Source: Dehalococcoidia bacterium (GTDB taxonomy: Bacteria; Chloroflexota; Dehalococcoidia; UBA6926). From it: DNA of 64,000 bases. Below are positions 8,573-36,641 of the stretch, piece by piece (positions within the stretch are counted from its first letter, which is position 1; each line of letters opens with the position of its first letter). The translations under genes and the position numbers were made by a program. The notes under the pieces were generated by a model. It made no database searches, had not been told where the DNA came from, and saw only the letters and a list, made by a program, of their open reading frames with translations. The stretch spans positions 801,938 to 865,937 of the forward strand of contig OZ243973.1 in assembly GCA_965214725.1 (NCBI GenBank). The letters are read 5' to 3'.

Positions 8573-8640
8573 CCCGATGGTTTCCCGCTTTCGCGGGAAT
8601 GAGGGGAGTGGGCCGCGGGAATGAGGGTGTGGCCGCGGTG
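8573..8640. repeat. REP1-family element (one full copy plus a degenerate half copy)
   Basis: cccgatggtttcccgctttcgcgggaatgaggggag followed by gggccgcgggaatgagggtg. Confidence 0.75.
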
Positions 8641-11886: not shown

Positions 11887-11897
11887 CCCCCCCCCCC
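11887..11897. repeat. Poly-C homopolymer (C11) about 50 nt upstream of the tlpA-like start
   Basis: gagccccccccccccgcccg. Confidence 0.6.
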
Positions 11898-18573: not shown

Positions 18574-19640
18574 CGCAGCAAGTCAGGGCTCTCCGCCACC
18601 CGCGCCGCCGCGCTGAGCGGTGAGAGCTCCCCCGCCTCCACCCGCCGCGTCATCTCCGCCAGCGCGCCATCCCCCTCCGCGCGCGCCAGCCGCTCCAACA
18701 GGCGGTCCCGCAGCGCCGTGTGAAACTCCACCCGCCGCTGCGCCGCGCGCCGCTCCTCAAGCCGCCCCGTCTCGCGCAGCGTCTCATGCCGATGCCCCAC
18801 CGCGTCCACCAGCTCATCCACACCGATCCCGCGGATGCCCTCCGTCTGCAGCACCGGTATCGTCCACCAGTCCATATCGCGGCTGCCGAGATGCGCCGTC
18901 ATCTCCAGGTCCGCCGCCATTCGCTTCGCGCCGGGGCGGTCTGACTTGTTGACGACGAAGATATCGGCGATCTCCAGCAACCCCGCCTTCATCGTCTGGA
19001 TCGCGTCACCCGCCTCCGGCACGACGACGACGACGACGCTGTCCACGGCGTGGAGAACATCGAGTTCCGTCTGCCCCACGCCCGCCGTCTCCACGATGAT
19101 GACATCCAGCCCGGCCGCGTCCAGCACACGCAGGGCGGACGGCACGATGGCGGACAGCCCGCCGGACGCGCCGCGCGTGGCCATGCTGCGGATAAACACG
19201 CCCGGGTCAAGGAAGTGGTCACGCATGCGGACGCGATCCCCAAGGATGGCGCCGCCCGTGAACGGGCTTGAGGGGTCAACGACGAGGACGCCAACCGTCC
19301 GGCCTCGAGCGCGCAGGCGGGCCGTCATTCCCTCCACGAGGGTGCTCTTCCCCGCGCCCGGCGGGCCCGTAATCCCCACGCGGTGAGCGCCGCCCGTGCT
19401 TGACGGCATTGTAGATTCCGCGGCTCCGCTATGCTCCGCTCGGAATGACAGAGGAGGGTGCGCGCTGTCCATCTCGCCCATGCCGACGCGCTCGGCGGGC
19501 GTGCTATCCCGCGCCGATAGATGGTTTGTGATGTGCTGCATCATCTCCTCGGCGCGCGCGTCACCCTTCTCAAGCAACGAGAGGATGCGCGGCGCGGCGG
19601 CAAGATCGCCGGTCAGCAGGCGACGTACAAGATCATCCAT
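18570..19640 (-). CDS. meaB: Methylmalonyl-CoA mutase-associated GTPase MeaB (ArgK family) with an unusually long linker containing a REP2-derived in-frame insert
   Basis: P-loop GITGPPGAGKSTLVEG and the VVDPSSPFTGGAILGDRVRM switch region typical of MeaB/ArgK. The N-terminal helix is followed by ~25 extra residues that coincide with a REP2 copy at 19412-19455. Confidence 0.8.
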   Translation of the reverse strand: MDDLVRRLLTGDLAAAPRILSLLEKGDARAEEMMQHITNHLSARDSTPAERVGMGEMDSAHPPLSFRAEHSGAAESTMPSSTGGAHRVGITGPPGAGKSTLVEGMTARLRARGRTVGVLVVDPSSPFTGGAILGDRVRMRDHFLDPGVFIRSMATRGASGGLSAIVPSALRVLDAAGLDVIIVETAGVGQTELDVLHAVDSVVVVVVPEAGDAIQTMKAGLLEIADIFVVNKSDRPGAKRMAADLEMTAHLGSRDMDWWTIPVLQTEGIRGIGVDELVDAVGHRHETLRETGRLEERRAAQRRVEFHTALRDRLLERLARAEGDGALAEMTRRVEAGELSPLSAAARVAESPDLLR

Positions 19641-19703
19641 GCCTTAAGGGTAGCGCATGGCGCGAGGGGAGTGGGGCGCCCCTCACCCCGGCCCTGGCGG
19701 GCC

Positions 19704-19740
19704 TCCCCTCATTCCCGCGCACGCGGGAATCCATCGGGGG
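19704..19740. repeat. REP1-family element
   Basis: cctcattcccgcgcacgcgggaatccatcggggg. Confidence 0.8.
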
Positions 19741-19757
19741 GCTGGTCCGGGGGGGTA

Positions 19758-20048
19758 TCAGTTGGGAAGGGTGAGTATGGCAACAAACATGGCGATGAAT
19801 CCCGCGAACATGCTGGCCCACATGAGGCCCAACATCACATTGATACGGGCGCCCAACCTTTCAATCTGTTGGCGGAGGGCCTCATCGCCCGTTTGCATGT
19901 CTTTGCGGAGGGCTTCAAAACCCTCGCGCGTTTCTTGGCGGAAGAGTATGTTGTGCCCCTGAATGTCATCGAGGCGCTTGTTCATCTGCTCGAAGGCGCC
20001 TTCGATCCGGGTCATGCGGTCGTTGTCTGTTGGTGTGCTTGTTGTCAT
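19758..20048 (-). CDS. Small XhlA-like protein (N-terminal coiled coil, C-terminal TM anchor), paralog 1
   Basis: MTTSTPTDNDRMTRIEGAFEQMNKRLDDIQG… ends in the hydrophobic LGLMWASMFAGFIAMFVAILTLPN. It is 55-85% similar to 20111..20374 and 25852..26178. Confidence 0.5.
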   Translation of the reverse strand: MTTSTPTDNDRMTRIEGAFEQMNKRLDDIQGHNILFRQETREGFEALRKDMQTGDEALRQQIERLGARINVMLGLMWASMFAGFIAMFVAILTLPN

Positions 20049-20082
20049 TGCCGTCGTTCCTCTCTACGACAGTGTACCAGGC

Positions 20083-20107
20083 GGGGGGCGGGGGGGGGGG
20101 GGGGGGG
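20083..20107. repeat. Homopolymeric G tract (G6-C-G18) between paralog 2 stop and paralog 1 start (35-60 nt upstream of the paralog 1 start codon)
   Basis: gcggggggcgggggggggggggggggggcgg. Confidence 0.7.
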
Positions 20108-20110
20108 CGG

Positions 20111-20374
20111 TCAGTTGGGGATGGTGAGGATGGCGATGAATCCGCCGACCATCGTCGCCCAGAGGAGGCCGAAGCCGATGAACATCATGTTCCGAAGGCC
20201 ATCAATCCGGCGGTCCATCGCATCAAGACGGCGGTCCATCCCATCAAAGCGGCGTTCCATGCTTTCGAACCGGAGGACTATCTGTTCCAAGGCGCCCTCG
20301 ATGTGGCTGATTCGTTCAGAATCCGGTGGGGGGGATGTGTCTGTTGTCATGACGGTCCCTCTCCTTCTGGGCAC
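20111..20374 (-). CDS. Small XhlA-like protein (coiled coil plus C-terminal TM), paralog 2
   Basis: MTTDTSPPPDSERISHIEGALEQIVLRFESMERRFDGMDRRLDAMDRRIDGL… ends in FIGFGLLWATMVGGFIAILTIPN. Confidence 0.5.
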   Translation of the reverse strand: MPRRRGTVMTTDTSPPPDSERISHIEGALEQIVLRFESMERRFDGMDRRLDAMDRRIDGLRNMMFIGFGLLWATMVGGFIAILTIPN

Positions 20375-20425
20375 AGTATAGCAGGGGCGTGTTGGGGGGG
20401 GCCTCCGCGCGGACGCAGGGCGCCT

Positions 20426-20466
20426 CCCCTCCCCTCATTCCCGCGCACGCGGGAATCCATCGGGGA
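20426..20466. repeat. REP1-family element
   Basis: cccctcattcccgcgcacgcgggaatccatcggggag. Confidence 0.8.
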
Positions 20467-20562
20467 GGGCTCCCGCCTGTCTCACCATTGGGGTGGCGTG
20501 GCATAGGGGGCCGGGAAGGGCGTGTTGGGGGGGCGATGCGTAGTGGAATGATGAATGGCGGC

Positions 20563-20600
20563 GGATGGATTCCCGTTTTCACGGGAATGAGGGGAGGGGG
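20563..20600. repeat. REP1-family element (variant cccgttttcacggg)
   Basis: ggatggattcccgttttcacgggaatgaggggag. Confidence 0.7.
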
Positions 20601-20619
20601 TGGGAATGACGGGATTGGA

Positions 20620-20640
20620 GGGGGGGGGGGGGGGGGGGGG
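20620..20640. repeat. Homopolymeric G tract (G21)
   Basis: ggag followed by 21 G, then atgagggg. Confidence 0.7.
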
Positions 20641-20741
20641 ATGAGGGGAGAAGAGTGTGGGGATGCGTTGGGGGCGGGAATGACGGGGATGGGAGTGGGG
20701 GTACGGGGGCAACATGTTGGGGGGGGGCTTAATGAGGAAGG

Positions 20742-20805
20742 GGGGCTGCCCTTGCGGGCAGCCCCCCTCTCTTTTCTCTCTCGGCTCTTCGTTCCCGTTT
20801 TAGGC
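20742..20805 (+). terminator. Strong GC hairpin (gggggctgccc-ttgc-gggcagccccc) followed by a T/C-rich tract; intrinsic-terminator-like, adjacent to the stop of the giant gene
   Basis: Perfect 11-bp stem with a tetraloop, followed by tctcttttctctctcggctcttcgttcccgtttt. Confidence 0.45.
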
Positions 20806-20834
20806 GGGAGCGCGTTGCCTTTGTGCGGCTTGGC

Positions 20835-23800
20835 TTATCCGCCGATCACTCCGTCACGCGTCGCGAACAGCAGGTAGCCCTTGCCCTTCTCAACAACCGC
20901 GCGATGCTCATCCATGGTGAACCCGTCCGTGGCCGTGCCGTTCGAGAAGTAGGTCTCGTACTGCGGCGGCGTCGCGGCTGAGTTCCACATCCGGATCATG
21001 CCCCAGCCGCTGTTCCCCAGCGCGCTCAGGTAGGCGTCCACCGGAACCATCGTCTCGTTGCCCGCGGGCGTGTAGCCGATGCTGTTCCAGCCGGCCGTCA
21101 CCGTGTACTGGGAGGGCGTGCGCTGGGGGCTGAACCGCTCTGTGAGCACCTTCACCGGATCGAACGTCGTGCTGCGGACAAAGTAGCCGCGCCCGTCAAC
21201 GATCTGTGTCAGTGTGCCCATCCATTCGCCGCTGTCGGCGTCCTTCCGTGCGAACTCCCAGATCTTCGTCTCGTTGTTCAGGCTCCAGACGTCCGTCACC
21301 ATCGATCCCTCAAGCACACCATCAATGCTCTTGTCCTGCGGGGTGCCCGGGATGGAGATGAGCGACCAGCCAGGGTTCACGGCAACCGATGCAGGCGCAG
21401 GCGCCGTGATCTTGAACACGTACCCGAACTTGCCCTCGTTGCCAGCCTCGTCCACGAAGTCGACGTTCAGGCGGTAGTTGCCGATGGCCAGGTCTGACAG
21501 GGCGACCACGTACCGAACGTGATTCGAGCTCTGCGCAGACCCGTCCTCAACTTCCCACGTCTCCGTCACTTCAACCATCGCGGCAGCCTTGAGCATGTCG
21601 TCGCTGTCAAGCGAGCCGGCTGACAGGCCCTCAAGGCCCAAGCCTGTGACGGTAACCATCTTCTTGGTGTCAGTTGACTTGTATTCGTCCCCGGTGCCTG
21701 TACCGTACTCGTTAGCCTCAGCAGCGAACTCGAAGTTGAGGAACACAACGTCATTGACCTCAATCGGCTGAGCAACCATGGGATCCGCGTCCTTGTCATA
21801 CACCCGTGCGGGGGGCATGCCGCCGTTCGCCTTGGTATCAAGCTCCCATGTGGACTTCATGCTCATACCATCATTGTCATTCGTATCCGTACCAGTGACG
21901 TGAACGGTGTACTTACCGCTAGCACTAGTTCCGCCAAGGTTCTCGGCCTTCCTGTTCGTGCTCACTGTCCACGTGTTGTCATCCGATGCGGCCCGCACAG
22001 ACAGTGGCTCGTCATAGGAGCCAAGCATCAAGCGTGCCTTCGGCGTCTGCTCGAGTTCCTCAGAGGCGACGATGGTGATTTCCAACTCATCATTGCTGAG
22101 CGGGTTGGCCACAGTCACCGTGAATACAGGAGCGAGCTCATCCACCGGCTTCGCCGTGTGATCGTTCCTGCTCTCGTTGCCAGCCAAGTCGCGCAGATCG
22201 CCATTGTCTATGTCGATTGTAGGTCGCGCATCGGTCGCCAGGTCGTTCTCAAGGGTCAAGAACAGAAGGTGCCTAGCGTCCTCACCATCGGCCATGTCGT
22301 CAGCGAGCCCGAGATCATCTCGAACGGCCACGCCGCCGACGGAACCAATCTTGCTACCGTTCGTGTTATCCAACCAAGTCACGCTGGTGACGCTGTTGCC
22401 GCTAACGCTGACATTCTGTGCATTCACGTCAGCCCCAGCGATGGCATCATCAAACACCAGCACGATGCCCTTCGTATTCTCGGTGACCAGTTCATAGGGA
22501 TCGCCATCGGAGCCGGCCTTGACGCTGACGCCCGTGAGAGCCTTCATCAGTTCCGGATCGATGTCATCCACCACGAACGTGTATGACTTCTTCGCCACGT
22601 TCCGCGCAAGGTCATACGCGGTGATATCGACTTTGACAGTCACGGTCTCCGGCTCGTCGTCGCCAGTGCCCTCTGCTGTCTGTACAGCACTGGTGACATC
22701 GAATTCAATCTCGTAACGCTCGCCATCAGTGATTTCGTCGTCGACATCTAGCTCAGCGGTGTCCCCGCCGTCCAAGTCGAGGACTGGCTCATCTTCGCCC
22801 TGACCGTACATTGCCATCCGCATGACGTGGTAGTGGCCATCACGGATCTCCTCTTCATGGGCATCCTCGGGGATGCCAGAGTCAGCATCCGTCACGTTGA
22901 AGAAGAAGGAGAAGTCATCATCCGCAACGTATGAACCGCTGGCGAGAGAGTTTCCGCCAATCGCCGGCGCAACAATGTCAACCTCTGTGCGTGCAGTGCG
23001 AGTGCCGGTGGGCTCCGCATCGCCATACCGAATCGTCACCGTGTCGCCATGCTCCACGCCGATAACGGCAGCCAGCAAAGCGTCCACCCTAGCACCCATC
23101 AGCCCAAGATTTCCTGTGTGACCGTTGATCGCATCAACAAGCGATACCGCCTGCATGCAATTCTTGTCTCTGTCGGCCATGTCGTCATCACCACAGAAGG
23201 AGTTGAAGACACCATCAATCTCGTCATCGCCCTGATCGGCCGTTCCAGTTGCCTGAACGGTTGCGAGCAAGGACGCAATGGTTCCGCTCGCCGCTTCTGT
23301 CGTGTAGTTCACCATGAACATGTCAGCCGTATCGGCCGTAGCCTCGTTGCCATCTTCAGCGACACTGCTCCCGTTAAGCGGGACCGCAACAGTAACAGTC
23401 CCATCGCTATTGACGGTCACCACATGATCGTTGGCCATGGTGGTCCGGACAGAACCATCGGTATCCACACCGGGCTTAAACATCACTTCCAAACTTCCGG
23501 ATACCAACGTATTCGCCGCTGAAACACCTGTAAGGTTGAACACCGCCGACGGCGCGGCAGCGATTGTGTTGGGATCATCCGGAGTCTCAGCGGTGTTAAC
23601 TGCTGGGGACACGACAGTAATCGTCTGCGCCTGAGCCTGTGGGGTCGGGACAAGGCCCGCGTAATCCGCAATCGCGTCCTTAAATTCCTTGCGGATGACT
23701 CCAAAGCGGCCAACAAACACACCAGAGTCTCGGGAGTCCGCAGCCGCAGGATCGAAACTTGTGATGTCGGTCCCGCCAAAGTTAGCAGCGCCGACACCGT

Positions 23801-24688
23801 TATCCAGTGCAGCATATGTGGCCAGGTTCTTCTCACTCACTGAGATCCTGATGGAACTCCGATCGGACGTGCTCGAGACCTCGACACGGCTCTTGTCCTG
23901 AAGGGTCTCAACTCTGTAATCGCTCGGATAAGTCAATGCATTTTCCCCAGCGGAGTCAAACCCGATTCGCAATGCTGGAACATACTCAACGTTATTCTCA
24001 GCAGCCGGCCTGTCCACAGTGGGTATTGAATCCCCTTCTTGAAGGTTAGGGATTAAGCCTCTATCTAGGTAGAGTCCGTCATTCGCTGTATTGATCCCAG
24101 CGAAGGCACCGCTCTGAAGGGCCCGCGTACCAACAAACTTGGCGGGAGCGGCCATTACCGGAGGGGTAGCACTGGGGTTAGCACGAACAGCCGGAAGGTA
24201 CCATCCAAGCTCAAGCTCGATATCTTCCCCATTCACAACACCGTCACGTGTATCATCACCGACGACCAAACTACCGAGAACCATTATCTCATCTGCTATG
24301 TCGTCAGCTGTGTCACGATCCGTGTCTAGACCCCGCGAAGCGAAGTCACCTACCAAATCACCGTTCGGCAGGTTAACGGCCACAGCAAAGCCAGCCGCTC
24401 CAGAGGAGGACGCCAAGCTGGGGTCGATCCTAAAAAGGGATCCACCAGGATTCGCATCTGGAAGGTTGGTGACGCGTCTTCGAGAGAGGTAACGGAGCCT
24501 GTCGTATCCGACACGTACTCGGTGCCCATGAGCTTTTCAAACGTTGAGCCAGTCTTCCCAGAGGGATTGGCGAGCTCATCGGGGGTAACGATTTTGACGT
24601 TACCGGCGGCTGCGCCGGCCCCGATGGCCGGGATCATGGCGAACGCGAGGATCGCGACCGTCAAGATAATGAGTGCTTTGCGCTTCAC
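20835..24688 (-). CDS. Very large (~1280 aa) acidic secreted/cell-surface protein with a Sec signal peptide; apparent frameshift near 24470-24500
   Basis: Signal peptide VKRKALIILTVAILAFAMIPAIGAGAAAG (GTG at 24688 after a GGAAGGGGG RBS) is in the frame of ORF 24350..24841. That frame switches to the 1193-aa ORF 20835..24416 around 24470-24500. The body is D/T/G/V-rich with repeated beta-rich segments (Ig-like/adhesin- or S-layer-like composition). No LPXTG sorting signal. Confidence 0.6.
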
Positions 24689-25179
24689 AGGAAGCCCCCT
24701 TCCGTAACTGTGATGTGGGCCACGGTTGCGGCCCGTCTTTCCAAGTGTAGTGGAATGTGCGGAATTCGTCACGCCGTCCGGTGTGGGGCTGCGTGACTGC
24801 CAAGGTTCTCGTGAACGCATCCTGCTCTCCTCCCGATCCATCGGTGGACGGTCCCGCGCTGGTCTCCGTCTCTCTCGGTCTCTCTCTATCCCACTCTTCT
24901 CGCTCTGTCAGCCGCCTGCCCGTCTGGCCATTCGTCAATCCATCTGCCAGCCGGCGTGATGCGTCTGAGCGAGTAACGATGCAACACAAAGCGGACAGCC
25001 CGCGTCCGGGCTTAATCCACTAAGCGCGACTATAGGCGAGATGGAGGGGGGTTGTCAATAGTGCGGGGTCAGCAGATGAGGGCAATTTGGGGGCTGTTTC
25101 AGATAGGATTTCCAAAAACAGGTTCAGAACCAGTTCAAGAAAGAGGGGCGCGGCGGGGGGCTTTGTCCGTCAACATTCT

Positions 25180-25223
25180 GGATTCTTCGGCTCCGCGCTA
25201 TCGCGCTGCGCTCAGAATGACAT
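25180..25223. repeat. REP2-family element, long form
   Basis: ggattcttcggctccgcgctatcgcgctgcgctcagaatgac. Confidence 0.75.
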
Positions 25224-25240
25224 GGGGGAGGGGGCCCCAC

Positions 25241-25413
25241 TGTCATGCCGGGCCTCTCACTGTCATACCGGGCCTCCCACTGTCATTCCGAGCCTCCCAC
25301 TGTCATTCCGGGCCCCCCACTGTCATTCCGAGCGCCCTTCATGTCATTCTGAGCGCGCCATGTCATTCTGAGCGCCCTTCATGTCATTCTGAGCGCAGCG
25401 AAGAATCCCGCAG
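25241..25413. repeat. Tandem array of ~8 units of ~20 bp derived from the REP2 half-site (cactgtcattccgRgcYYcc … atgtcattctgagcgc), ending in a full REP2
   Basis: Contiguous units with no spacers (minisatellite-like; not CRISPR). Confidence 0.8.
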
Positions 25414-25430
25414 GCCGCCTATCAGCCCCA

Positions 25431-25727
25431 TTACCAGTCACGCGCCAAATCAATCCACCGAGGGTTCGTGGATTCTATGAGGGCGATCTTCTTGCTACGC
25501 AGCCACCCCTTGATCTGCTTTTCGCGCTCCAACGCCACCTTGACGTCTGAGGTCTCCTCAAAGTAGACCAGCCAATTGATCTTGTACCTGCTGGCGAAGC
25601 CGGGCGTGAGGCCCTGTTTGTGCTCATGGATGCGCCGCTGGAGGTCCCTGGTCATGCCGACGTACAGCTTGTGCCTCGGGTTCGACAGGATGTAGACGAA
25701 GTAACGATGCTCTTGTCTGTTGTTCAT
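25431..25727 (-). CDS. GIY-YIG nuclease family protein (~98 aa, stand-alone GIY-YIG domain)
   Basis: …YFVYILSNPRHKLYVGMTRDLQRRIHEH… is the GIY-YIG motif. The six-frame ORF's N-extension is a translation of poly-G/REP and is rejected; the ATG at 25727 is used. Confidence 0.75.
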   Translation of the reverse strand: MNNRQEHRYFVYILSNPRHKLYVGMTRDLQRRIHEHKQGLTPGFASRYKINWLVYFEETSDVKVALEREKQIKGWLRSKKIALIESTNPRWIDLARDW

Positions 25728-25736
25728 GCTTGTTGG

Positions 25737-25765
25737 ATTCTTCGCTGCGCTCAGAATGACATATG
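25737..25765. repeat. REP2-family element, short form
   Basis: ggattcttcgctgcgctcagaatgacat. Confidence 0.8.
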
Positions 25766-25830
25766 GGGCCAGAATGGCGTATGGCGGGGCGTGGCGGGAA
25801 TGGGGGGACGGGAGGGGCGTGGCGGGAATT

Positions 25831-25849
25831 GGGGGGGGGGGGGGGGGGG
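25831..25849. repeat. Homopolymeric G tract (G19) immediately 3' of paralog 3
   Basis: gggaatt, then 19 G, then tatcag. Confidence 0.7.
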
Positions 25850-25851
25850 TA

Positions 25852-26178
25852 TCAGTCTGCGAGGGTGAGGATGAAGACGTACAGAGCGATGAATCCGGCA
25901 ACCGTCGTGACCCACATGATGCCCCCAATCATCAAGTAGAGGCGGTCAGCGACTCTATAGATCTTCTCGTCGAGCCGGACAACATCCTCGCGCATGTCTT
26001 TGCGGAGGGCATCAAGACCTTCGCGCGTATCCTTGCGGAGGGAGTCAAAACCTGCGTGCGTCTCTTGGCGGAAGAGTGTGTTTTGCCCTTGGATGTCATC
26101 GAGGCGCTTATTCATCTGCTCGAAGGCGCCTTCGATCCGGGTCATGCGATCGTTGTCTGTTGGTGTGCCTGTCGTCAT
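25852..26178 (-). CDS. Small XhlA-like protein (coiled coil plus C-terminal TM), paralog 3
   Basis: MTTGTPTDNDRMTRIEGAFEQMNKRLDDIQGQNTLFRQETHAGFDSLRKD… ends in YLMIGGIMWVTTVAGFIALYVFILTLAD. Confidence 0.5.
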   Translation of the reverse strand: MTTGTPTDNDRMTRIEGAFEQMNKRLDDIQGQNTLFRQETHAGFDSLRKDTREGLDALRKDMREDVVRLDEKIYRVADRLYLMIGGIMWVTTVAGFIALYVFILTLAD

Positions 26179-26179
26179 C

Positions 26180-26300
26180 GTCGTCGTTCCTCTGCGGACA
26201 ATGCGGCACGCGCGAGCGGGGAGGGAGGTGGGGGTATCAGGTCCGCGAGGGTGTGCCTGTCGTCATCGTCGTCGTTCCTGTGTAGGACAGTGTAGCACGC
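26180..26300. repeat. Partial duplication carrying a second copy of the paralog start (MTTGTP…) fused directly to a paralog 3' end (…tcaggtccgcgagggtg) — a deletion/recombination remnant of a fourth paralog
   Basis: gtgcctgtcgtcatcgtcgtcgttcct occurs at 26165-26200 and again at 26255-26290; the 3'-end motif occurs at 26225-26250. Confidence 0.55.
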
Positions 26301-26328
26301 GCGAGTTGGGGGGCGGGGCGGCGTGCCG

Positions 26329-26410
26329 GATGGATTCCCGCTTTCGCGGGAATGAGGGGAGGGGGGCGGGCGTGGCGGGAATGAGGGGAGGGAGGGCGGG
26401 AATGGGGGGG
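26329..26410. repeat. REP1-family element followed by two degenerate half copies
   Basis: ggatggattcccgctttcgcgggaatgaggggagg … ggcgggaatgaggggag … gggcgggaatggggg. Confidence 0.75.
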
Positions 26411-26431
26411 GGCGTCAGGCGGGTGGGCAAA

Positions 26432-26467
26432 TGGGTGCCCGCCCACGTCTCCCCTGAGGGAGACGTG
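26432..26467. terminator. 16-bp-stem hairpin (cccgcccacgtctccc-ctga-gggagacgtgggcgg) just 3' of the rho stop
   Basis: Perfect inverted repeat. Confidence 0.45.
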
Positions 26468-26486
26468 GGCGGACGGTGGCGGCCGC

Positions 26487-28295
26487 TTAGATCTCTCTTG
26501 AGAGGGTGGCCATGAACTCGGCGTTCGTCTTGGTCTTGCTGATGCGGTCCAGAATCCGCTCCGTGGCGTCTGAGGCGTCCAGGTTGGAGTTGGACAGCAT
26601 CGCCATCATGCGGCGCAGGGTGACGATGCCGCGGTACGTCTGGTCATCATACAGCCGCTCGTCCCGCCGCGTGCTGGACTTGAGCACGTCAATGGCCGGG
26701 TAGATGCGCCGCTCTGCCAGTTTGCGGTCCAGGTGCACCTCCATGTTGCCGGTGCCCTTGAATTCCTCGTAGATGACATCATCAAGCCGGGAGCCGGTGT
26801 CGACGAGGCACGTGGCGACGATGGTGAGGGTGCCGGATTCTTCCGTGTTGCGCGCGGCGCCGAAGAAGTGCTTGGGGGGGTACAGCGCGACGGGGTCCAT
26901 GCCGCCGGAGAGCGTGCGCCCGGAGGATGGGGCGGCAATGTTGTAGGCGCGCGCAAGTCGGGTGATGGAATCGAGCAGGATGACAACGTCCCGCCCGGCC
27001 TCAACCAGACGCTTGGCGCGCGCAAGAACCAGCTCGGCAACGCGTGTGTGCTCTTCAACGGGCTCGTCAAAGGTGGAGGCCATAACCTCGGCGCCCTTGA
27101 CGGTGCGCTCCCAGTCCGTCACCTCTTCCGGCCGCTCGCCGATGAGGGCCGCCATGATGTGGGTGCTGGGGTATTTGGCGGTGATCGCATCAGCGATCTG
27201 GTGGAGCAGGATGGTCTTGCCGGCCTTGGGTGGGGAGACAATCAGGGCGCGCTGCCCAAAGCCGATGGGGGCGATGAGGTTCAGCAGTCGCGCCGCAACA
27301 GCCTTCTGGCTGGTCTCCAGGTCATAGAGCCGGTCCGGGAAGAGGGCGGTCAGCTGGTCAAAGATGGGCCGACGCCGCGCGATCTCCGGCTCCTGGCCGG
27401 TGACGGCGTCAACACGGAGGAGGCCGTAGTATTTCTCACCGCTCTTGGGGGAACGGACGTGGCCGGTTACCCAGTCACCGGTGCGCAGGCCGAATCGCCT
27501 GACTTGAGATTGCGCGACGTAGACATCATTGATGTTGTGGCGGAGTGTGCGGTGCCGGATAAAGCCGTAGCCGTCATTGGTGATCTCTAGGATGCCGCTC
27601 GCGCTGATGGTGCCGCCACGCTCACCCAAGGTCTGGATGGCGCGATGCACCATCTCGTCCCGCCGGACAATGGCGCTGGCAGACATGCCGAGGAATTCGG
27701 CAAGGCGGGCGGCCTCGTCACGGTCGAGGGACTCAAGCTGCGGGATGGTGACACTGCGCAGTCCCTCCGGGAGGGAGGCGGCACGGGCGGCGCGCTCAGC
27801 CTCGCTCATCTCGTTGGACTCGTCAGGCTCAGGGCGCTGGCGTGGCGGCCGGTCACGGTCCGGCCGGCGGCGCGATGGGGCGCCGTTGGCAGAGCGGGGA
27901 CGCTGCGGGCGCCGGACGGGGGCCGGCTCATCATCAACAACAAAGTCATCAGCCGACGGCGCGTCCGGTGACATGGTGGCGGGGGGGAGTCCCTCCGTGA
28001 TGGAGGGCGTGCCATTGGTCGTGGACGGGGAGGCGGCGGTGACGCCGTTGGCCGGGGGCGCGTCGACTGTATCAGGGCGAGTGGCAACGGCAGCGCCGTT
28101 CTTCTCGGTGACGGCCTCATCAGTCACGGCATCACTTGGTGCGGCGGTGGCTGTGGCGCGGCGCGTGCGTGGCGGGCGGGCAATGCCGCGCCGTGTCACG
28201 GGGCGCTGCGGCTCGTCCGGGGTCGGGGTATCTGTCGTGTCCACGAAGGTCTCCTTTAGTGGGTGCTGCGGGCCGCTTTGCTGTGCCCGCCACAT
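26487..28295 (-). CDS. rho: Transcription termination factor Rho with a long Arg/Pro/Asp-rich N-terminal insertion domain
   Basis: The C-terminal ~420 aa contain the Rho cold-shock-like RNA-binding region, Q/R loops and the RecA-like ATPase. An N-terminal ~200-aa low-complexity extension precedes it. The ATG at 28295 lies immediately after the pyrG stop; the further-upstream part of ORF 26487..28589 overlaps pyrG and is rejected. Confidence 0.8.
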   Translation of the reverse strand: MWRAQQSGPQHPLKETFVDTTDTPTPDEPQRPVTRRGIARPPRTRRATATAAPSDAVTDEAVTEKNGAAVATRPDTVDAPPANGVTAASPSTTNGTPSITEGLPPATMSPDAPSADDFVVDDEPAPVRRPQRPRSANGAPSRRRPDRDRPPRQRPEPDESNEMSEAERAARAASLPEGLRSVTIPQLESLDRDEAARLAEFLGMSASAIVRRDEMVHRAIQTLGERGGTISASGILEITNDGYGFIRHRTLRHNINDVYVAQSQVRRFGLRTGDWVTGHVRSPKSGEKYYGLLRVDAVTGQEPEIARRRPIFDQLTALFPDRLYDLETSQKAVAARLLNLIAPIGFGQRALIVSPPKAGKTILLHQIADAITAKYPSTHIMAALIGERPEEVTDWERTVKGAEVMASTFDEPVEEHTRVAELVLARAKRLVEAGRDVVILLDSITRLARAYNIAAPSSGRTLSGGMDPVALYPPKHFFGAARNTEESGTLTIVATCLVDTGSRLDDVIYEEFKGTGNMEVHLDRKLAERRIYPAIDVLKSSTRRDERLYDDQTYRGIVTLRRMMAMLSNSNLDASDATERILDRISKTKTNAEFMATLSREI

Positions 28296-28299
28296 GTCA

Positions 28300-30063
28300 T
28301 CAGCGCGTGGCGGTCGTCTCTCTGGGTGGTGTTGCGTGTGGATGCTGCTCAGCGTTGTTGTTGGGGGAACGATGGGATGATGCATCAACGCGCTGGGCCG
28401 GGTGGGCCATGCCGTCTTGCGCGACGATGAGGGGTGGCTGCTCGCCGGCGCGGAGGATGCCGGCGGCAACGGAGACGAATTCCCGGAAAAGGGGATGGGC
28501 GCGCGTGGGCCGGGATTTGAATTCCGGGTGGAACTGCGTCCCAAGCATGAACGGATGATCACGCGCCTCTGAGATCTCAACAAGGTCAAGCTCCCGGTAG
28601 GCGCCGCTCACAATGAGGCCCGCCTCCTTAAAGGAGGCACGATAGGCGTTGTTGAATTCAAAGCGGTGCCGGTGCCGCTCAATGACGGTCTCCGGATCAC
28701 CATACGCATGGGCGGCAACGGTGCCGGGCGTGAGGTGGCAGAGGTAGGAGCCGAGGCGCATGGTGCCACCCTTGGCGCGGACACGCTCCTGCTCCTCCAT
28801 GATGTGGATGACAGGATGAGGCGTCCCGACATCAAACTCGGTGGAGTTGGCGCCGCTCAGACCGGCGACGCTGCGCGCAAATTCAATGACCATGATCTGC
28901 ATACCAAGGCAGAGGCCCAGATAAGGGATACGCTGCTCACGAGCGTAAGACGCGGCGCGGATCATTCCCTCGATCCCGCGAGACCCGAAGCCGCCCGGGA
29001 CAACGATGCCGTGCGCACGGGCGAGCCGTTCCTCCCAGCCGTCCACCTCCAACTCCTCCGCAGATATCCAATCAATGTCAATGTCCACGCCGATCTCAAG
29101 ACCGGAGTGGGTGAGCGCCTCCCGAACGGAGAGGTATGCATCACGCAGTTCAACATACTTGCCGACAATCGCGACGGTGAGCGGCGGCTTGGGTTCCTCA
29201 AAGCGCTGGACAAGGTCCCGCCAGTCATCGAGACGCGGCTCCATCTCCGCATACCCATCAAGCTTCATCCTGTTTAAGAGGTAGTCGCCAAGTCCGCGCT
29301 CCTCAAGCAGCAGCGGGACGCGATAGATGGTATCCACCGTCGAAAGCGGGATGACAGCCTGCGGCTCAACATCACAGAACAGGGCGATCTTCTCGATGGT
29401 TTCCTGCGTGGTCTCCACCTCGCTGCGGGCAATGATGACATCCGGCAGGATGCCGGCGCTGCGCCCAAGCTCACGGACGGAGTGCTGTGTCGGCTTTGTC
29501 TTGAGTTCGCCGGTGGCGTGGAGATACGGCAGATACGTCACATGGACAAAGATGGCCTCAGTCCGACCGAGTTCGTTGCGGACCTGGCGAATCGCCTCAA
29601 GGAACGGCTGCCCCTCAATATCACCAACGGTTCCGCCCACCTCGATGATGATGACCTCCGCGCCGGACTCGTCCGCAACCTGCCTCATGCGGTTCTTGAT
29701 GGAATTCGTGACATGGGGGACAACCTGGATTGTGCCGCCGAGGAAATCACCGCGCCGCTCACGGGAGAGCACGGATGAGTACACCTGGCCGGCCGTGACG
29801 CTGGACGCGCGTGTCATCTCGGCATCGACAAATCTCTCATAGTGGCCGAGGTCAAGGTCCGTCTCCGCACCATCACCCGTCACAAACACCTCCCCATGCT
29901 GGTACGGAGACATGGTGCCTGGATCGACGTTGAGATAGGGGTCAAGCTTCTGAACTGCGACCTTGATGCCGCGGCTCGTGAAAAGTCGGCCAATGGCAGC
30001 GGCCGTGATTCCTTTACCGATGGAACTAACGACGCCGCCTGTCACAAAGACGTACTTTGCCAT
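28300..30063 (-). CDS. pyrG: CTP synthase PyrG with a ~45-aa C-terminal extension
   Basis: MAKYVFVTGGVVSSIGKG synthetase N-terminus; glutamine amidotransferase domain with GLCLGMQ. Confidence 0.9.
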   Translation of the reverse strand: MAKYVFVTGGVVSSIGKGITAAAIGRLFTSRGIKVAVQKLDPYLNVDPGTMSPYQHGEVFVTGDGAETDLDLGHYERFVDAEMTRASSVTAGQVYSSVLSRERRGDFLGGTIQVVPHVTNSIKNRMRQVADESGAEVIIIEVGGTVGDIEGQPFLEAIRQVRNELGRTEAIFVHVTYLPYLHATGELKTKPTQHSVRELGRSAGILPDVIIARSEVETTQETIEKIALFCDVEPQAVIPLSTVDTIYRVPLLLEERGLGDYLLNRMKLDGYAEMEPRLDDWRDLVQRFEEPKPPLTVAIVGKYVELRDAYLSVREALTHSGLEIGVDIDIDWISAEELEVDGWEERLARAHGIVVPGGFGSRGIEGMIRAASYAREQRIPYLGLCLGMQIMVIEFARSVAGLSGANSTEFDVGTPHPVIHIMEEQERVRAKGGTMRLGSYLCHLTPGTVAAHAYGDPETVIERHRHRFEFNNAYRASFKEAGLIVSGAYRELDLVEISEARDHPFMLGTQFHPEFKSRPTRAHPLFREFVSVAAGILRAGEQPPLIVAQDGMAHPAQRVDASSHRSPNNNAEQHPHATPPRETTATR

Positions 30064-36610: not shown

Positions 36611-36641
36611 GATGGATTCCCGCTTGCGCGGGAATGAGGGG
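36611..36641. repeat. REP1-family element
   Basis: gatggattcccgcttgcgcgggaatgaggggac. Confidence 0.8.

What the first reader, a model, noticed from the sequence alone, without database searches (positions are those of the whole stretch)
19650..26480. Family of small XhlA-like coiled-coil/TM-anchor genes in repeat-rich arrays on both sides of a giant secreted-protein gene
Three intact paralogues (19758-20048, 20111-20374, 25852-26178; all minus strand) encode 87-108-aa proteins. Each has the same architecture: N-terminal MTTxTPxDNDRMTRIEGAxEQ…, a heptad-repeat coiled coil, and one C-terminal hydrophobic helix ending LT(L/I)P(N/D). This resembles holin-associated/XhlA-type proteins. A fourth copy survives only as a start-fused-to-end remnant (26180-26300). 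The paralogues sit in two blocks immediately flanking the ~1280-aa acidic secreted protein gene (20835-24688) and the GIY-YIG gene. The blocks are saturated with REP1/REP2 elements and long G homopolymers. This looks like a locally expanding, recombining small-gene family physically tied to a giant surface protein. It could be a secretion/anchoring or lysis-type accessory set, or a contingency locus. I cannot match it to a described system.
Basis: partly seen in the sequence, partly recalled or inferred. Interest (0 to 1): 0.7.

Follow-up and report, generated by a model that had tools for sequence, protein, structure and literature searches.

The report
Small tail-anchored coiled-coil membrane protein family
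The three small genes are real members of an unannotated family, found here almost only in Dehalococcoidia, of membrane proteins made of one long helix anchored by its last ~20 residues; they are not phage XhlA lysis proteins, are only loosely linked to giant surface-protein genes, and their function is unknown.

Summary
Three paralogous genes and one deletion remnant flank a giant acidic surface-protein gene. REP hairpins and long poly-C tracts are concentrated there.

The XhlA reading fails. Pfam XhlA scores 13.8 bits for one paralogue (cut-off 34.7; a true XhlA scores 53). Profile-profile alignment matches only the membrane helix. No holin or endolysin lies nearby, and no relative was found in viral contigs.

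The genes belong to a family with no Pfam or NCBIfam model. It has about 200 cluster representatives, and all 133 hits in reference genomes are Dehalococcoidia/Chloroflexota MAGs. Members share:
- a conserved tip, (MTTQTP)..ER(L/V)SRLEGAYEQ;
- one uninterrupted helix built mostly of 11-residue repeats in variable number;
- a C-terminal membrane helix that ends the protein, so the rod is predicted to be cytoplasmic.

Most genes carry their own extended -10 promoter close to the start codon. There are several scattered copies per genome.

Large surface-protein genes (cadherin, FN3, or like the window's giant) lie within 1.2 kb at 17 of 79 loci. This is enriched but not obligatory. Orthologous giant loci in more distant relatives lack the family.

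The function is inferred only: probably a membrane-anchored cytoplasmic rod or scaffold. As assembled, the giant gene is frameshifted.

The parts
19758..20048 (-). p1, a 96-aa family member. It has the tip motif, an 11-residue-type rod and a C-terminal TM helix ending the protein.
   Evidence: ORF. 98% identical orthologue P0001 in a related strain. AF2 predicts one continuous helix, residues 8-92, pLDDT 95.5.
20071..20079 (-). Extended -10 box TGgTACACT of p1, 22 nt upstream of the ATG. An SD-like GAGAGG lies in between.
   Evidence: Read from the sequence. The same motif occurs upstream of 61 of 89 family genes, against 6% of control ORFs.
20111..20350 (-). p2, a 79-aa family member (87 aa if read from GTG 20374). 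Its rod has three 7-residue repeats, MERRFDG/MDRRLDA/MDRRIDG.
   Evidence: TRF finds 21 nt x3 at 20199-20260. The orthologue P0004 is 79 aa.
20375..20383 (-). Extended -10 box TGcTATACT of p2.
   Evidence: Sequence. Family-wide motif statistics.
25852..26178 (-). p3, a 108-aa family member with 11-residue repeats. A related strain carries one extra 11-aa repeat (119 aa).
   Evidence: TRF finds 33 nt x2.6 at 25988-26072. The overlapping BLAST blocks imply a 33-nt indel.
26237..26297 (-). Deletion remnant of a fourth copy. It keeps an intact TGcTACACT box (26297-26289), the leader, the ATG and a 9-codon ORF (26266-26237). It may serve as promoter and leader for p3, whose own -10 is degenerate (CGCATT).
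   Evidence: Sequence. Conserved in L001 and L002. The promoter role is inferred.
20090..20107 (-). Poly-C tract (18 nt on the coding strand) directly after the p2 stop codon. It is 9 and 10 nt in two related strains.
25831..25849 (-). Poly-C tract (19 nt) directly after the p3 stop codon. It is 16 and 18 nt in related strains.
20620..20640 (-). Poly-C tract (21 nt) between the giant gene and p2.
19702..19739 (.). REP-type hairpin element (TTCCCGCGCACGCGGGAA core) downstream of p1. Further copies lie at 20428-20465, 20562-20600 and 26327-26365.
20835..24688 (-). Giant acidic surface-protein gene, frameshifted as assembled. The signal-peptide part lies in frame -1 (24688 to about 24450). The body lies in frame -3 (about 24467 to 20835).
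   Evidence: The deposited annotation calls only 1149 aa without a signal peptide (P0161). Intact homologues are 1296-1401 aa.
25029..25058 (-). Near-consensus promoter (TTGACA-18-TATAGT) of the giant gene, followed by a conserved leader of about 340 nt.
25431..25727 (-). Small GIY-YIG nuclease gene with flanking inverted repeats and a 20-nt tandem array. It is a neighbour, not part of the family.
   Evidence: Pfam GIY-YIG, E 1.4e-15. Repeats.

Best explanation
p1, p2 and p3 are functional genes of a previously unannotated family. In reference genomes it was found only in Dehalococcoidia/Chloroflexota MAGs.

Each protein is a single long alpha-helix with three parts:
- a conserved N-terminal tip, (MTTQTP)-x-E-[ED]-R-[LVM]-S-R-[LI]-E-G-A-[YF]-E-Q;
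- a rod of variable length, made mostly of 11-residue repeats and sometimes 7- or 18-residue repeats;
- a C-terminal transmembrane helix rich in small residues (GGxWATxxGGFIA) that ends the protein.

There is no signal peptide, the basic residues sit before the helix, and 0-6 residues follow it. The proteins should therefore insert as tail-anchored proteins, with the rod and tip in the cytoplasm. This topology is predicted, not shown.

Each gene is its own transcription unit, with an extended -10 promoter about 17 nt from the ATG. Rod length changes by gain or loss of repeat units.

The role is inferred, not shown. The most likely one is a membrane-anchored, probably oligomeric, cytoplasmic rod whose conserved tip docks a cytoplasmic partner. 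That would make it a scaffold or tether on the inner face of the membrane.

The family is not XhlA and not a phage lysis function. Its position next to the giant surface-protein gene reflects a real but non-obligatory tendency to sit beside large surface-protein genes in recombination-prone regions.
For: Family:
- The exhaustive HMMER search gave 200 representatives at E<=1e-3. Most are 65-160 aa and match end to end.
- The sequences show a shared tip, repeats and a TM helix.
- All 133 genome hits, of which 79 loci were kept, are Dehalococcoidia, Chloroflexota or SAR202 MAGs. Several scattered copies occur per genome.
- No Pfam or NCBIfam model reaches its cut-off.

Structure:
- AF2 predicts one helix, residues 8-92, pLDDT 95.5.
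- The sequence-repeat lag is 11 in 36 of 113 members, 7 in 7 and 18 in 9.
- The hydrophobic period is 3.6-3.67.

Topology:
- 116 of 119 members have more K/R before the TM helix than after it.
- 97% have 6 or fewer residues after it.
- Only 2 have an N-terminal hydrophobic segment.

Expression signals:
- TGnTAnnnT lies within 60 nt of the ATG in 61 of 89 genes, against 6% of control ORFs and 3% of shuffles.
- The median distance from the box to the ATG is 17 nt.

Length change:
- There is an 11-aa indel between p3 and P0002.
- Tandem DNA repeats lie inside p2 and p3.

Context:
- About two thirds of the loci hold a single copy and one third hold same-strand arrays of 2-6.
- Other neighbours are unrelated metabolic genes.
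Against: - There is no experimental or expression data.
- The oligomeric state and the tip's partner are unknown.
- The 3.6-3.67 periodicity and the weak similarity to apolipoprotein A-I (E about 1e-4) would also fit a helix lying on the membrane surface.
- The enrichment next to giant surface-protein genes has no explanation under a purely cytoplasmic role.
- The taxonomic restriction rests partly on a pattern-limited scan. One distant member is labelled Candidatus Poribacteria.
Confidence: 0.6

Rival explanations
1. Dedicated accessory of giant surface proteins. The small proteins would help to export, position or anchor the neighbouring giant adhesin or S-layer-like protein.
For: - 25 of 79 loci have an ORF of 800 aa or more within 1.2 kb.
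- 28 of the 44 large ORFs in these loci lie that close, and 22 of the 28 are on the same strand.
- 17 loci in about 13 genomes involve signal-peptide or TM-bearing giants of three BLAST-unrelated clusters: cadherin, FN3 and the window's type.
- In L062 the small genes flank the giant on both sides, as in the window.
- In L083 a different TM-plus-coiled-coil gene occupies the same position next to the giant.
Against: - About two thirds of the loci have no large neighbour.
- The orthologous giant loci L082-L085 (46-48% identity, same synteny) lack canonical family members.
- The order relative to the giant is not fixed, and each small gene has its own promoter.
- The predicted topology leaves 6 or fewer residues outside the cell. 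Direct contact with a secreted protein that has no TM anchor is therefore unlikely.
- The loci are not independent, because some are orthologous or come from the same genome.
Confidence: 0.2
2. Membrane-surface amphipathic helices, like apolipoproteins or LEA proteins. The rod would lie on the inner leaflet and stabilise the membrane under stress.
For: - 11-mer repeats with hydrophobic period 3.6-3.67.
- The best PDB profile matches are apolipoprotein A-I, E 1e-4 to 1e-3.
- Pfam Apolipoprotein is hit by 15 of 72 members and NCBIfam sll1863 stress family by 8 of 72, all below their cut-offs.
Against: - Only 28.5% of rod residues are large hydrophobic residues and 34% are charged, so the apolar face is narrow.
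- AF2 models a straight helix continuous with the TM helix.
- The matches are of the low-complexity, periodicity type. They are shared with many unrelated coiled-coil families.
Confidence: 0.12
3. XhlA-type holin-associated lysis or release protein.
For: - Same size and layout as XhlA.
- p2 matches Pfam XhlA over the full model at E 0.068, and PHROG 1193 'hemolysin' at E 0.0019.
- 13 of 72 family members hit XhlA at E<0.01.
Against: - The score is 13.8 bits against a cut-off of 34.7. The true XhlA control, SPP1 gp24.1, scores 53 bits.
- hhalign against a 21-sequence XhlA alignment matches only 21-25 TM columns at 4-5% identity.
- The XhlA signature ERTSDRHDQQI...NTTWIKR is absent.
- No holin, endolysin or phage genes are nearby.
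- None of 27 pattern matches in 2.9 million viral contigs encodes a relative.
- Other coiled-coil families are hit as often or more often.
Confidence: 0.04
4. Contingency locus. The poly-C tracts would switch expression of the small genes or the giant gene on and off by slippage.
For: - Tract lengths differ between three strains whose flanks are about 97% identical: 19/16/18, 18/9/10 and 7/10/10.
- Such tracts are rare elsewhere: one further run of 8 or more in the window, and 6 runs of 10 or more in 1.2 Mb of other family loci.
Against: - The tracts lie directly after stop codons, not in ORFs. They do not lie between -35 and -10 hexamers, and the promoters are of the extended -10 type with no evident -35.
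- Homopolymer length is error-prone in long-read assemblies.
- 3' flanks are C-rich across the family (C 36% against G 28%). This fits a shared role such as Rho loading at least as well; that reading is inference.
Confidence: 0.08

Closest known systems
XhlA (Pfam PF10779), the holin-associated protein of Bacillus PBSX and SPP1 lysis cassettes
   Same: A small protein (about 80-90 aa) with an N-terminal helical part, one C-terminal membrane helix and basic residues before that helix.
   Different: - There is no sequence relationship beyond the membrane helix.
- It is not next to a holin or endolysin and is not on viral contigs.
- It is multi-copy and chromosomal, with its own promoters.
Borrelia Bdr proteins
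   Same: - Both are multi-copy paralogous families.
- Internal direct repeats vary in number between strains.
- The genes have their own promoter and often lie next to surface-protein genes.
[quoted passage not shown]
   Different: - No homology was detected; no Bdr-type model appeared among the listed Pfam or NCBIfam hits.
- Bdr genes lie on prophage-like plasmids, whereas these are chromosomal in Dehalococcoidia.
E. coli YqjD/ElaB/YgaM (DUF883), tail-anchored ribosome- and membrane-associated proteins
   Same: About 100 aa, a cytoplasmic helical N-terminal part, a C-terminal tail anchor and several paralogues per genome. The RefSeq product name for YqjD is given.
   Different: - hhalign probability is 0.7%.
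- YqjD ends in RR after its membrane helix.
- It has no tandem repeats and no conserved tip motif.
S-layer stalk or spacer proteins (Sulfolobus SlaB, tetrabrachion, Lpp). The comparison is from established knowledge, not tested by sequence.
   Same: Coiled-coil rods, some with 11-residue periodicity. They are linked with a large surface protein, and their length sets a distance.
   Different: Those rods are exported. This family has no signal peptide and is predicted to face the cytoplasm.

Membership tests
XhlA (PF10779) | Score at or above the Pfam gathering cut-off (34.7 bits). | tested here: not met
   p2 scores 13.8 bits (E 0.068). p1 and p3 have no hit at E<=1. The best of 72 family members reaches E 7.5e-6. 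The positive control, SPP1 gp24.1, scores 53 bits.
XhlA (PF10779) | Conserved XhlA signature (ERTSDRHDQQI ... NTTWIKR) alignable in a profile-profile comparison. | tested here: not met
   hhalign of A4 and A3 against the XhlA alignment A5 aligns only 21-25 TM columns at 4-5% identity, probability 44-76%.
XhlA (PF10779) | Location in a phage or prophage lysis cassette beside a holin and an endolysin. | tested here: not met
   The window's neighbours are MeaB, AlkZ-like, Rho, CTP synthase, GIY-YIG and the giant gene. Recurrent neighbours in 79 loci are metabolic genes or large surface proteins. No viral-contig relatives were found.
XhlA (PF10779) | Architecture: a short helical N-terminal part plus a single C-terminal membrane helix. 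| tested here: met
Tail-anchored membrane proteins (an architectural class) | A single TM helix at the extreme C-terminus, no signal peptide, and the positive-inside rule placing the N-terminus in the cytoplasm. | tested here: met
   97% of 119 members have 6 or fewer residues after the TM helix. 116 of 119 have more K/R before it than after it. Only 2 have an N-terminal hydrophobic segment. This is prediction only.
YqjD/ElaB/YgaM (DUF883) | Detectable sequence or profile similarity. | tested here: not met
   hhalign of A3 against E. coli YqjD gives probability 0.7%.
Borrelia Bdr | Sequence homology to Bdr. | not tested
   No Bdr sequence was compared directly. No such model appeared among the listed Pfam or NCBIfam hits.
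Borrelia Bdr | Multi-copy family with repeat-number polymorphism and a C-terminal hydrophobic anchor. | tested here: met
   This is an analogy only.
Exported S-layer stalk or anchor (SlaB-like) | An N-terminal signal peptide with the coiled coil outside the cell. | tested here: not met
Phase-variable contingency gene | The homopolymer lies within the ORF or between the promoter hexamers. | tested here: not met
   The tracts begin 2-3 nt after the stop codons of p2 and p3. The promoters are of the extended -10 type.
Phase-variable contingency gene | Tract length varies between closely related strains. | tested here: inconclusive
   The lengths differ, but sequencing error in long homopolymers cannot be excluded.
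Anti-phage defence proteins (PADLOC) | A significant match to a defence-system model. | tested here: not met
   Only weak coiled-coil matches were found, mostly to ZorA (E>=8e-5, under 20 bits).

The most novel reading that the evidence does not exclude
The rods could be a Dehalococcoidia-specific envelope-organising system. These tail-anchored proteins of adjustable length would act from the cytoplasmic side with giant adhesin or S-layer-like proteins, for example by marking export or anchoring sites. That would explain why they recur beside three unrelated classes of giant surface-protein genes. It would also explain why another TM-plus-coiled-coil gene occupies the same position in a relative.
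Probability: 0.12. Interest if true: 0.7.

Novelty: new variant of a known kind. Interest (0 to 1): 0.4.

Why it matters
Dehalococcoidia, including SAR202 and sponge-associated lineages, are abundant and uncultured, and their cell envelope is poorly understood.

This family has features that make it a concrete target for envelope and membrane-organisation studies in these bacteria:
- it is multi-copy and each gene has its own promoter;
- rod length varies by repeat number;
- it is enriched beside cadherin-, FN3- and S-layer-like giant genes.

The family also deserves a family model. At present these genes are called hypothetical or are missed.

The result also guards against a likely mis-annotation as 'hemolysin XhlA'.

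Tried and rejected
- **XhlA homology.** Rejected by bit scores, a positive control and hhalign.
- **Phage origin.** The scan of IMG/VR with two family peptide patterns gave 27 pattern matches and no relative.
- **Defence system.** PADLOC gave only weak coiled-coil matches, mostly to ZorA.
- **YqjD/DUF883 homology.** hhalign probability 0.7%.
- **'GTA head formation protein' lead.** NCBIfam NF048001 was hit by 11 of 72 members, best E 8e-9. None of 20 canonical members tested hit it at E<=0.001, so the hits come from distant members. The lead was dropped.
- **Solved structures.** Only apolipoprotein A-I-type periodicity matches were found.
- **Polymorphic-toxin and immunity reading.** Rejected. 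The giant's C-terminus is its most conserved part (93-95% nt identity), not a variable toxin tip. In addition, most family genes have no large neighbour.
- **Exported stalk or anchor.** Rejected on predicted topology.
- **Fold of the giant's C-terminal 341 aa.** The AF2 model had pLDDT 49.9, so no fold search was run.
- **Strict 'adjacent gene' test.** My crude ORF caller gave no enrichment, because spurious high-GC ORFs intervene. It was replaced by a distance-based test.
- **Rfam.** Nothing significant in 19000-27000.
- **Literature.** Four searches found no description of this family.


Full report
**1. Observation**

tblastn of each against the whole window finds only these three copies. 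p1 and p3 are 60% identical, and p2 is 32-33% identical to either.

The fourth copy is a true internal-deletion remnant. An intact TGcTACACT box, the leader, the ATG and five codons are joined at a CACC microhomology to the last codons and the stop codon. This gives MTTGTPSRT* at 26237-26266. Two related strains carry the same remnant.

Some corrections are needed.
- p2 most likely starts at ATG 20350 (79 aa). GTG 20374 lies directly after its -10 box, and the related-strain gene call is 79 aa.
- Only p2 has heptads (21 nt x3). p3 has 33-nt, 11-residue repeats.
- The ending LT(L/I)P(N/D) is specific to this lineage.

REP hairpins and long homopolymers are concentrated here. Four of about six hairpins in the window lie in this locus. 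Runs of 18, 21 and 19 nt occur here, and only one other run of 8 or more exists in the window.

**2. The giant gene**

The stretch 20835-24688 is not one reading frame. Homologues of 1296-1401 aa align to the window in frame -1 up to about 24450, and in frame -3 from about 24467. About 20 residues are missing between the two parts. The deposited annotation of the same genome calls only 1149 aa and no signal peptide (P0161). As assembled, the gene is therefore frameshifted.

The protein is acidic, pI 4.1, and has no Pfam domain above cut-off.

Two strains with about 97% identical flanks (L001, L002) keep the 5' end at 82% amino-acid identity. The last ~1.1 kb is 93-95% identical at the nucleotide level. 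The rest of the protein (residues 192-1323) averages only 57% amino-acid identity, so the centre is far more diverged than the ends. The frameshift sits exactly where this divergence begins.

The gene has a near-consensus promoter, TTGACA-18-TATAGT at 25058-25029. A leader of about 340 nt follows, and blocks of it are conserved even in relatives whose protein is about 47% identical. A hairpin near the leader's 5' end changes by two compensatory pairs, GCCCG/CGGGC against GCCTA/TAGGC. From general knowledge, strong promoters and long structured leaders are typical of S-layer genes. This fits an abundant surface protein but does not prove it.

**3. What the small genes are**

No Pfam, NCBIfam or PHROG model reaches significance or its cut-off. 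The word-indexed search found only three close relatives. An exhaustive HMMER search with the paralogue profile found 200 cluster representatives at E<=1e-3. Most are 65-160 aa and match end to end.

Their sequences show a common plan:
- a tip, (MTTQTP)..E[ED]R[LVM]SR[LI]EGA[YF]EQ.N.RL;
- a repeat region of variable length;
- a C-terminal hydrophobic helix with GGxWATxxGGFIA.

AlphaFold2 models p1 as one unbroken helix, residues 8-92, pLDDT 95.5.

Among 113 members with a rod of at least 40 residues, internal sequence repeats have period 11 in 36, 18 in 9 and 7 in 7. Hydrophobic periodicity peaks at 3.6-3.67 rather than 3.5.

Among 119 members, 97% have 6 or fewer residues after the membrane helix. 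116 have more K/R before it than after it. Only 2 have an N-terminal hydrophobic segment. From the positive-inside rule and the post-translational insertion of tail-anchored proteins (established knowledge), the rod should face the cytoplasm.

**4. Distribution and expression signals**

A scan of one genome per species found 133 relatives. The 79 loci kept are all Dehalococcoidia, Chloroflexota or SAR202 MAGs. Several scattered loci occur per genome; for example, four loci with at least seven genes lie on OY762956.1. The scan used one peptide pattern, so the range may be wider. One distant member is labelled Candidatus Poribacteria.

About two thirds of the loci hold a single gene. One third hold same-strand arrays of 2-6 genes.

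An extended -10 box (TGnTAnnnT) lies within 60 nt of the ATG in 61 of 89 genes. The figure is 6% for control ORFs and 3% for shuffled sequences. The median distance from the box to the ATG is 17 nt, and ten cases look leaderless. The genes therefore look like autonomous transcription units. This is an inference from sequence.

p3's own box is degenerate (CGCATT). The remnant 88 nt upstream keeps TACACT, so p3 may be transcribed from the remnant's promoter. This too is inference.

**5. Is it XhlA?**

No.
- p2 scores 13.8 bits on PF10779, whose cut-off is 34.7. A true XhlA, SPP1 gp24.1, scores 53 bits.
- 13 of 72 family members hit XhlA at E<0.01. Baculo_PEP_C, TolA_bind_tri, DUF7310 and Apolipoprotein are each hit by more members.
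- hhalign of the family alignments against 21 true XhlA proteins aligns only 21-25 columns of the membrane helix, at 4-5% identity.
- No holin, endolysin or phage gene lies nearby.
- No relative was found in 2.9 million viral contigs.

The resemblance is one of layout only. The same holds for E. coli YqjD, with hhalign probability 0.7%. Borrelia Bdr proteins share other traits: they are multi-copy, vary in repeat number between strains, have their own promoter, often lie next to surface-protein genes, associate with the inner membrane and have no known function (PMC10016077, PMC3303823).

**6. Is it tied to giant surface proteins?**

Partly. In the 79 loci, 28 of 44 ORFs of 800 aa or more lie within 1.2 kb of a family gene. 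Of these, 22 are on the same strand, and they fall in 25 loci.

Seventeen of these loci, from about 13 genomes, involve signal-peptide or TM-bearing giants of three BLAST-unrelated clusters: cadherin-domain, FN3-domain and homologues of the window's giant. With ORFs of 800 aa or more at roughly 4% of called genes, I would expect about 6-7 loci by chance. This is a rough estimate, and the loci are not independent.

Against an obligatory link:
- Most loci have no large neighbour.
- The order relative to the giant varies.
- Four orthologous giant loci in more distant relatives (same CTP synthase-Rho-giant-MeaB synteny) lack canonical family members.

One of these loci (L083) instead carries a gene with an N-terminal membrane helix and (IDERFAH)n repeats at the same position. 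L084 carries a 50-aa deletion derivative of it. This remains unexplained.

**7. Poly-C tracts**

On the coding strand the tracts begin 2-3 nt after the stop codons of p2 and p3. Their lengths differ between three strains: 19/16/18, 18/9/10 and 7/10/10.

They are not in ORFs and not between promoter hexamers, so a classical phase switch is not supported.

Across the family, 3' flanks are C-rich (C 36% against G 28%; controls 31% and 30%). C runs of 6 or more follow 9.6% of stop codons, against 1.1% in controls. C-rich, G-poor RNA is the known preference of Rho, so these tracts may be Rho loading sites. This is inference only.

**8. Verdict**

The XhlA, lysis and contingency readings are not supported. 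The link to giant genes is real but loose.

The best-supported description is a new family of tail-anchored, single-helix rod proteins, seen in reference genomes only in Dehalococcoidia. Rod length is set by the number of repeats, and the tip is conserved. A role as a cytoplasmic membrane-anchored scaffold or tether is my best guess; I give this specific role roughly 35-40%. The rivals are a dedicated partner of giant surface proteins (about 20%) and a membrane-surface amphipathic protector (about 12%). Interest is moderate.

Noticed in passing
window 24350-24688 and 20835-24416 (junction about 24450-24470): The giant surface-protein gene carries an out-of-frame deletion of about 20 codons. 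The deletion separates the signal peptide from the body. It lies exactly where the sequence starts to diverge from related strains, so it is either a recombination scar or an assembly chimera.
   Followed up: yes
window 24689-25058 (minus strand); L001, L082-L085: A near-consensus promoter is followed by a leader of about 340 nt, and blocks of the leader are conserved across relatives whose protein is only about 47% identical. A hairpin near the 5' end (25008-24992) changes by two compensatory pairs. A GGAAG...CTTCC stem sits at the start codon. This may be a stabilising or regulatory leader.
   Followed up: partly
window 25204-25770: A 98-aa GIY-YIG nuclease gene (25431-25727) is bracketed by inverted copies of GTCATTCTGAGCGCAGCGAAGAATC. 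A 20-nt tandem array of about 8 units lies at 25234-25396. It looks like a small mobile or repeat-spreading unit. The gene sits at different positions in L001 and L082-L085.
   Followed up: no
L083:5014-5478 and L084:5328-5480: In relatives, the slot between rho and the giant gene holds a 154-aa protein of the opposite layout: an N-terminal membrane helix followed by (IDERFAH)n heptad repeats. L084 holds a 50-aa version with the repeats deleted.
   Followed up: partly
window 26200-26208 versus 26289-26297: p3's own -10 box is degenerate (TGcCGCATT), while the upstream remnant keeps TGcTACACT. p3 may be transcribed from the remnant's promoter, through a 9-codon mini-ORF.
   Followed up: no
window 8582-8599, 19712-19729, 20438-20455, 20562-20600, 26335-26352, 36617-36634: A REP-type hairpin family with core TTCCCGCnnnnGCGGGAA. 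Similar hairpins (GGATTCCTGCCTTCGCAGGAATGG) precede family genes in other Dehalococcoidia genomes (L022, L035).
   Followed up: partly
L001:10822-11793 and L083:10019-11029: IS elements (rve integrase) are inserted next to the giant gene in two relatives. This marks the region as recombination-prone.
   Followed up: no
window 26487-28589: The longest ORF for rho is 700 aa and has a long low-complexity N-terminal extension. Relatives' gene calls are 580-626 aa. The true start was not determined.
   Followed up: no
window 11887-11897: The only long homopolymer outside the locus, an 11-nt C run on the plus strand.
   Followed up: no
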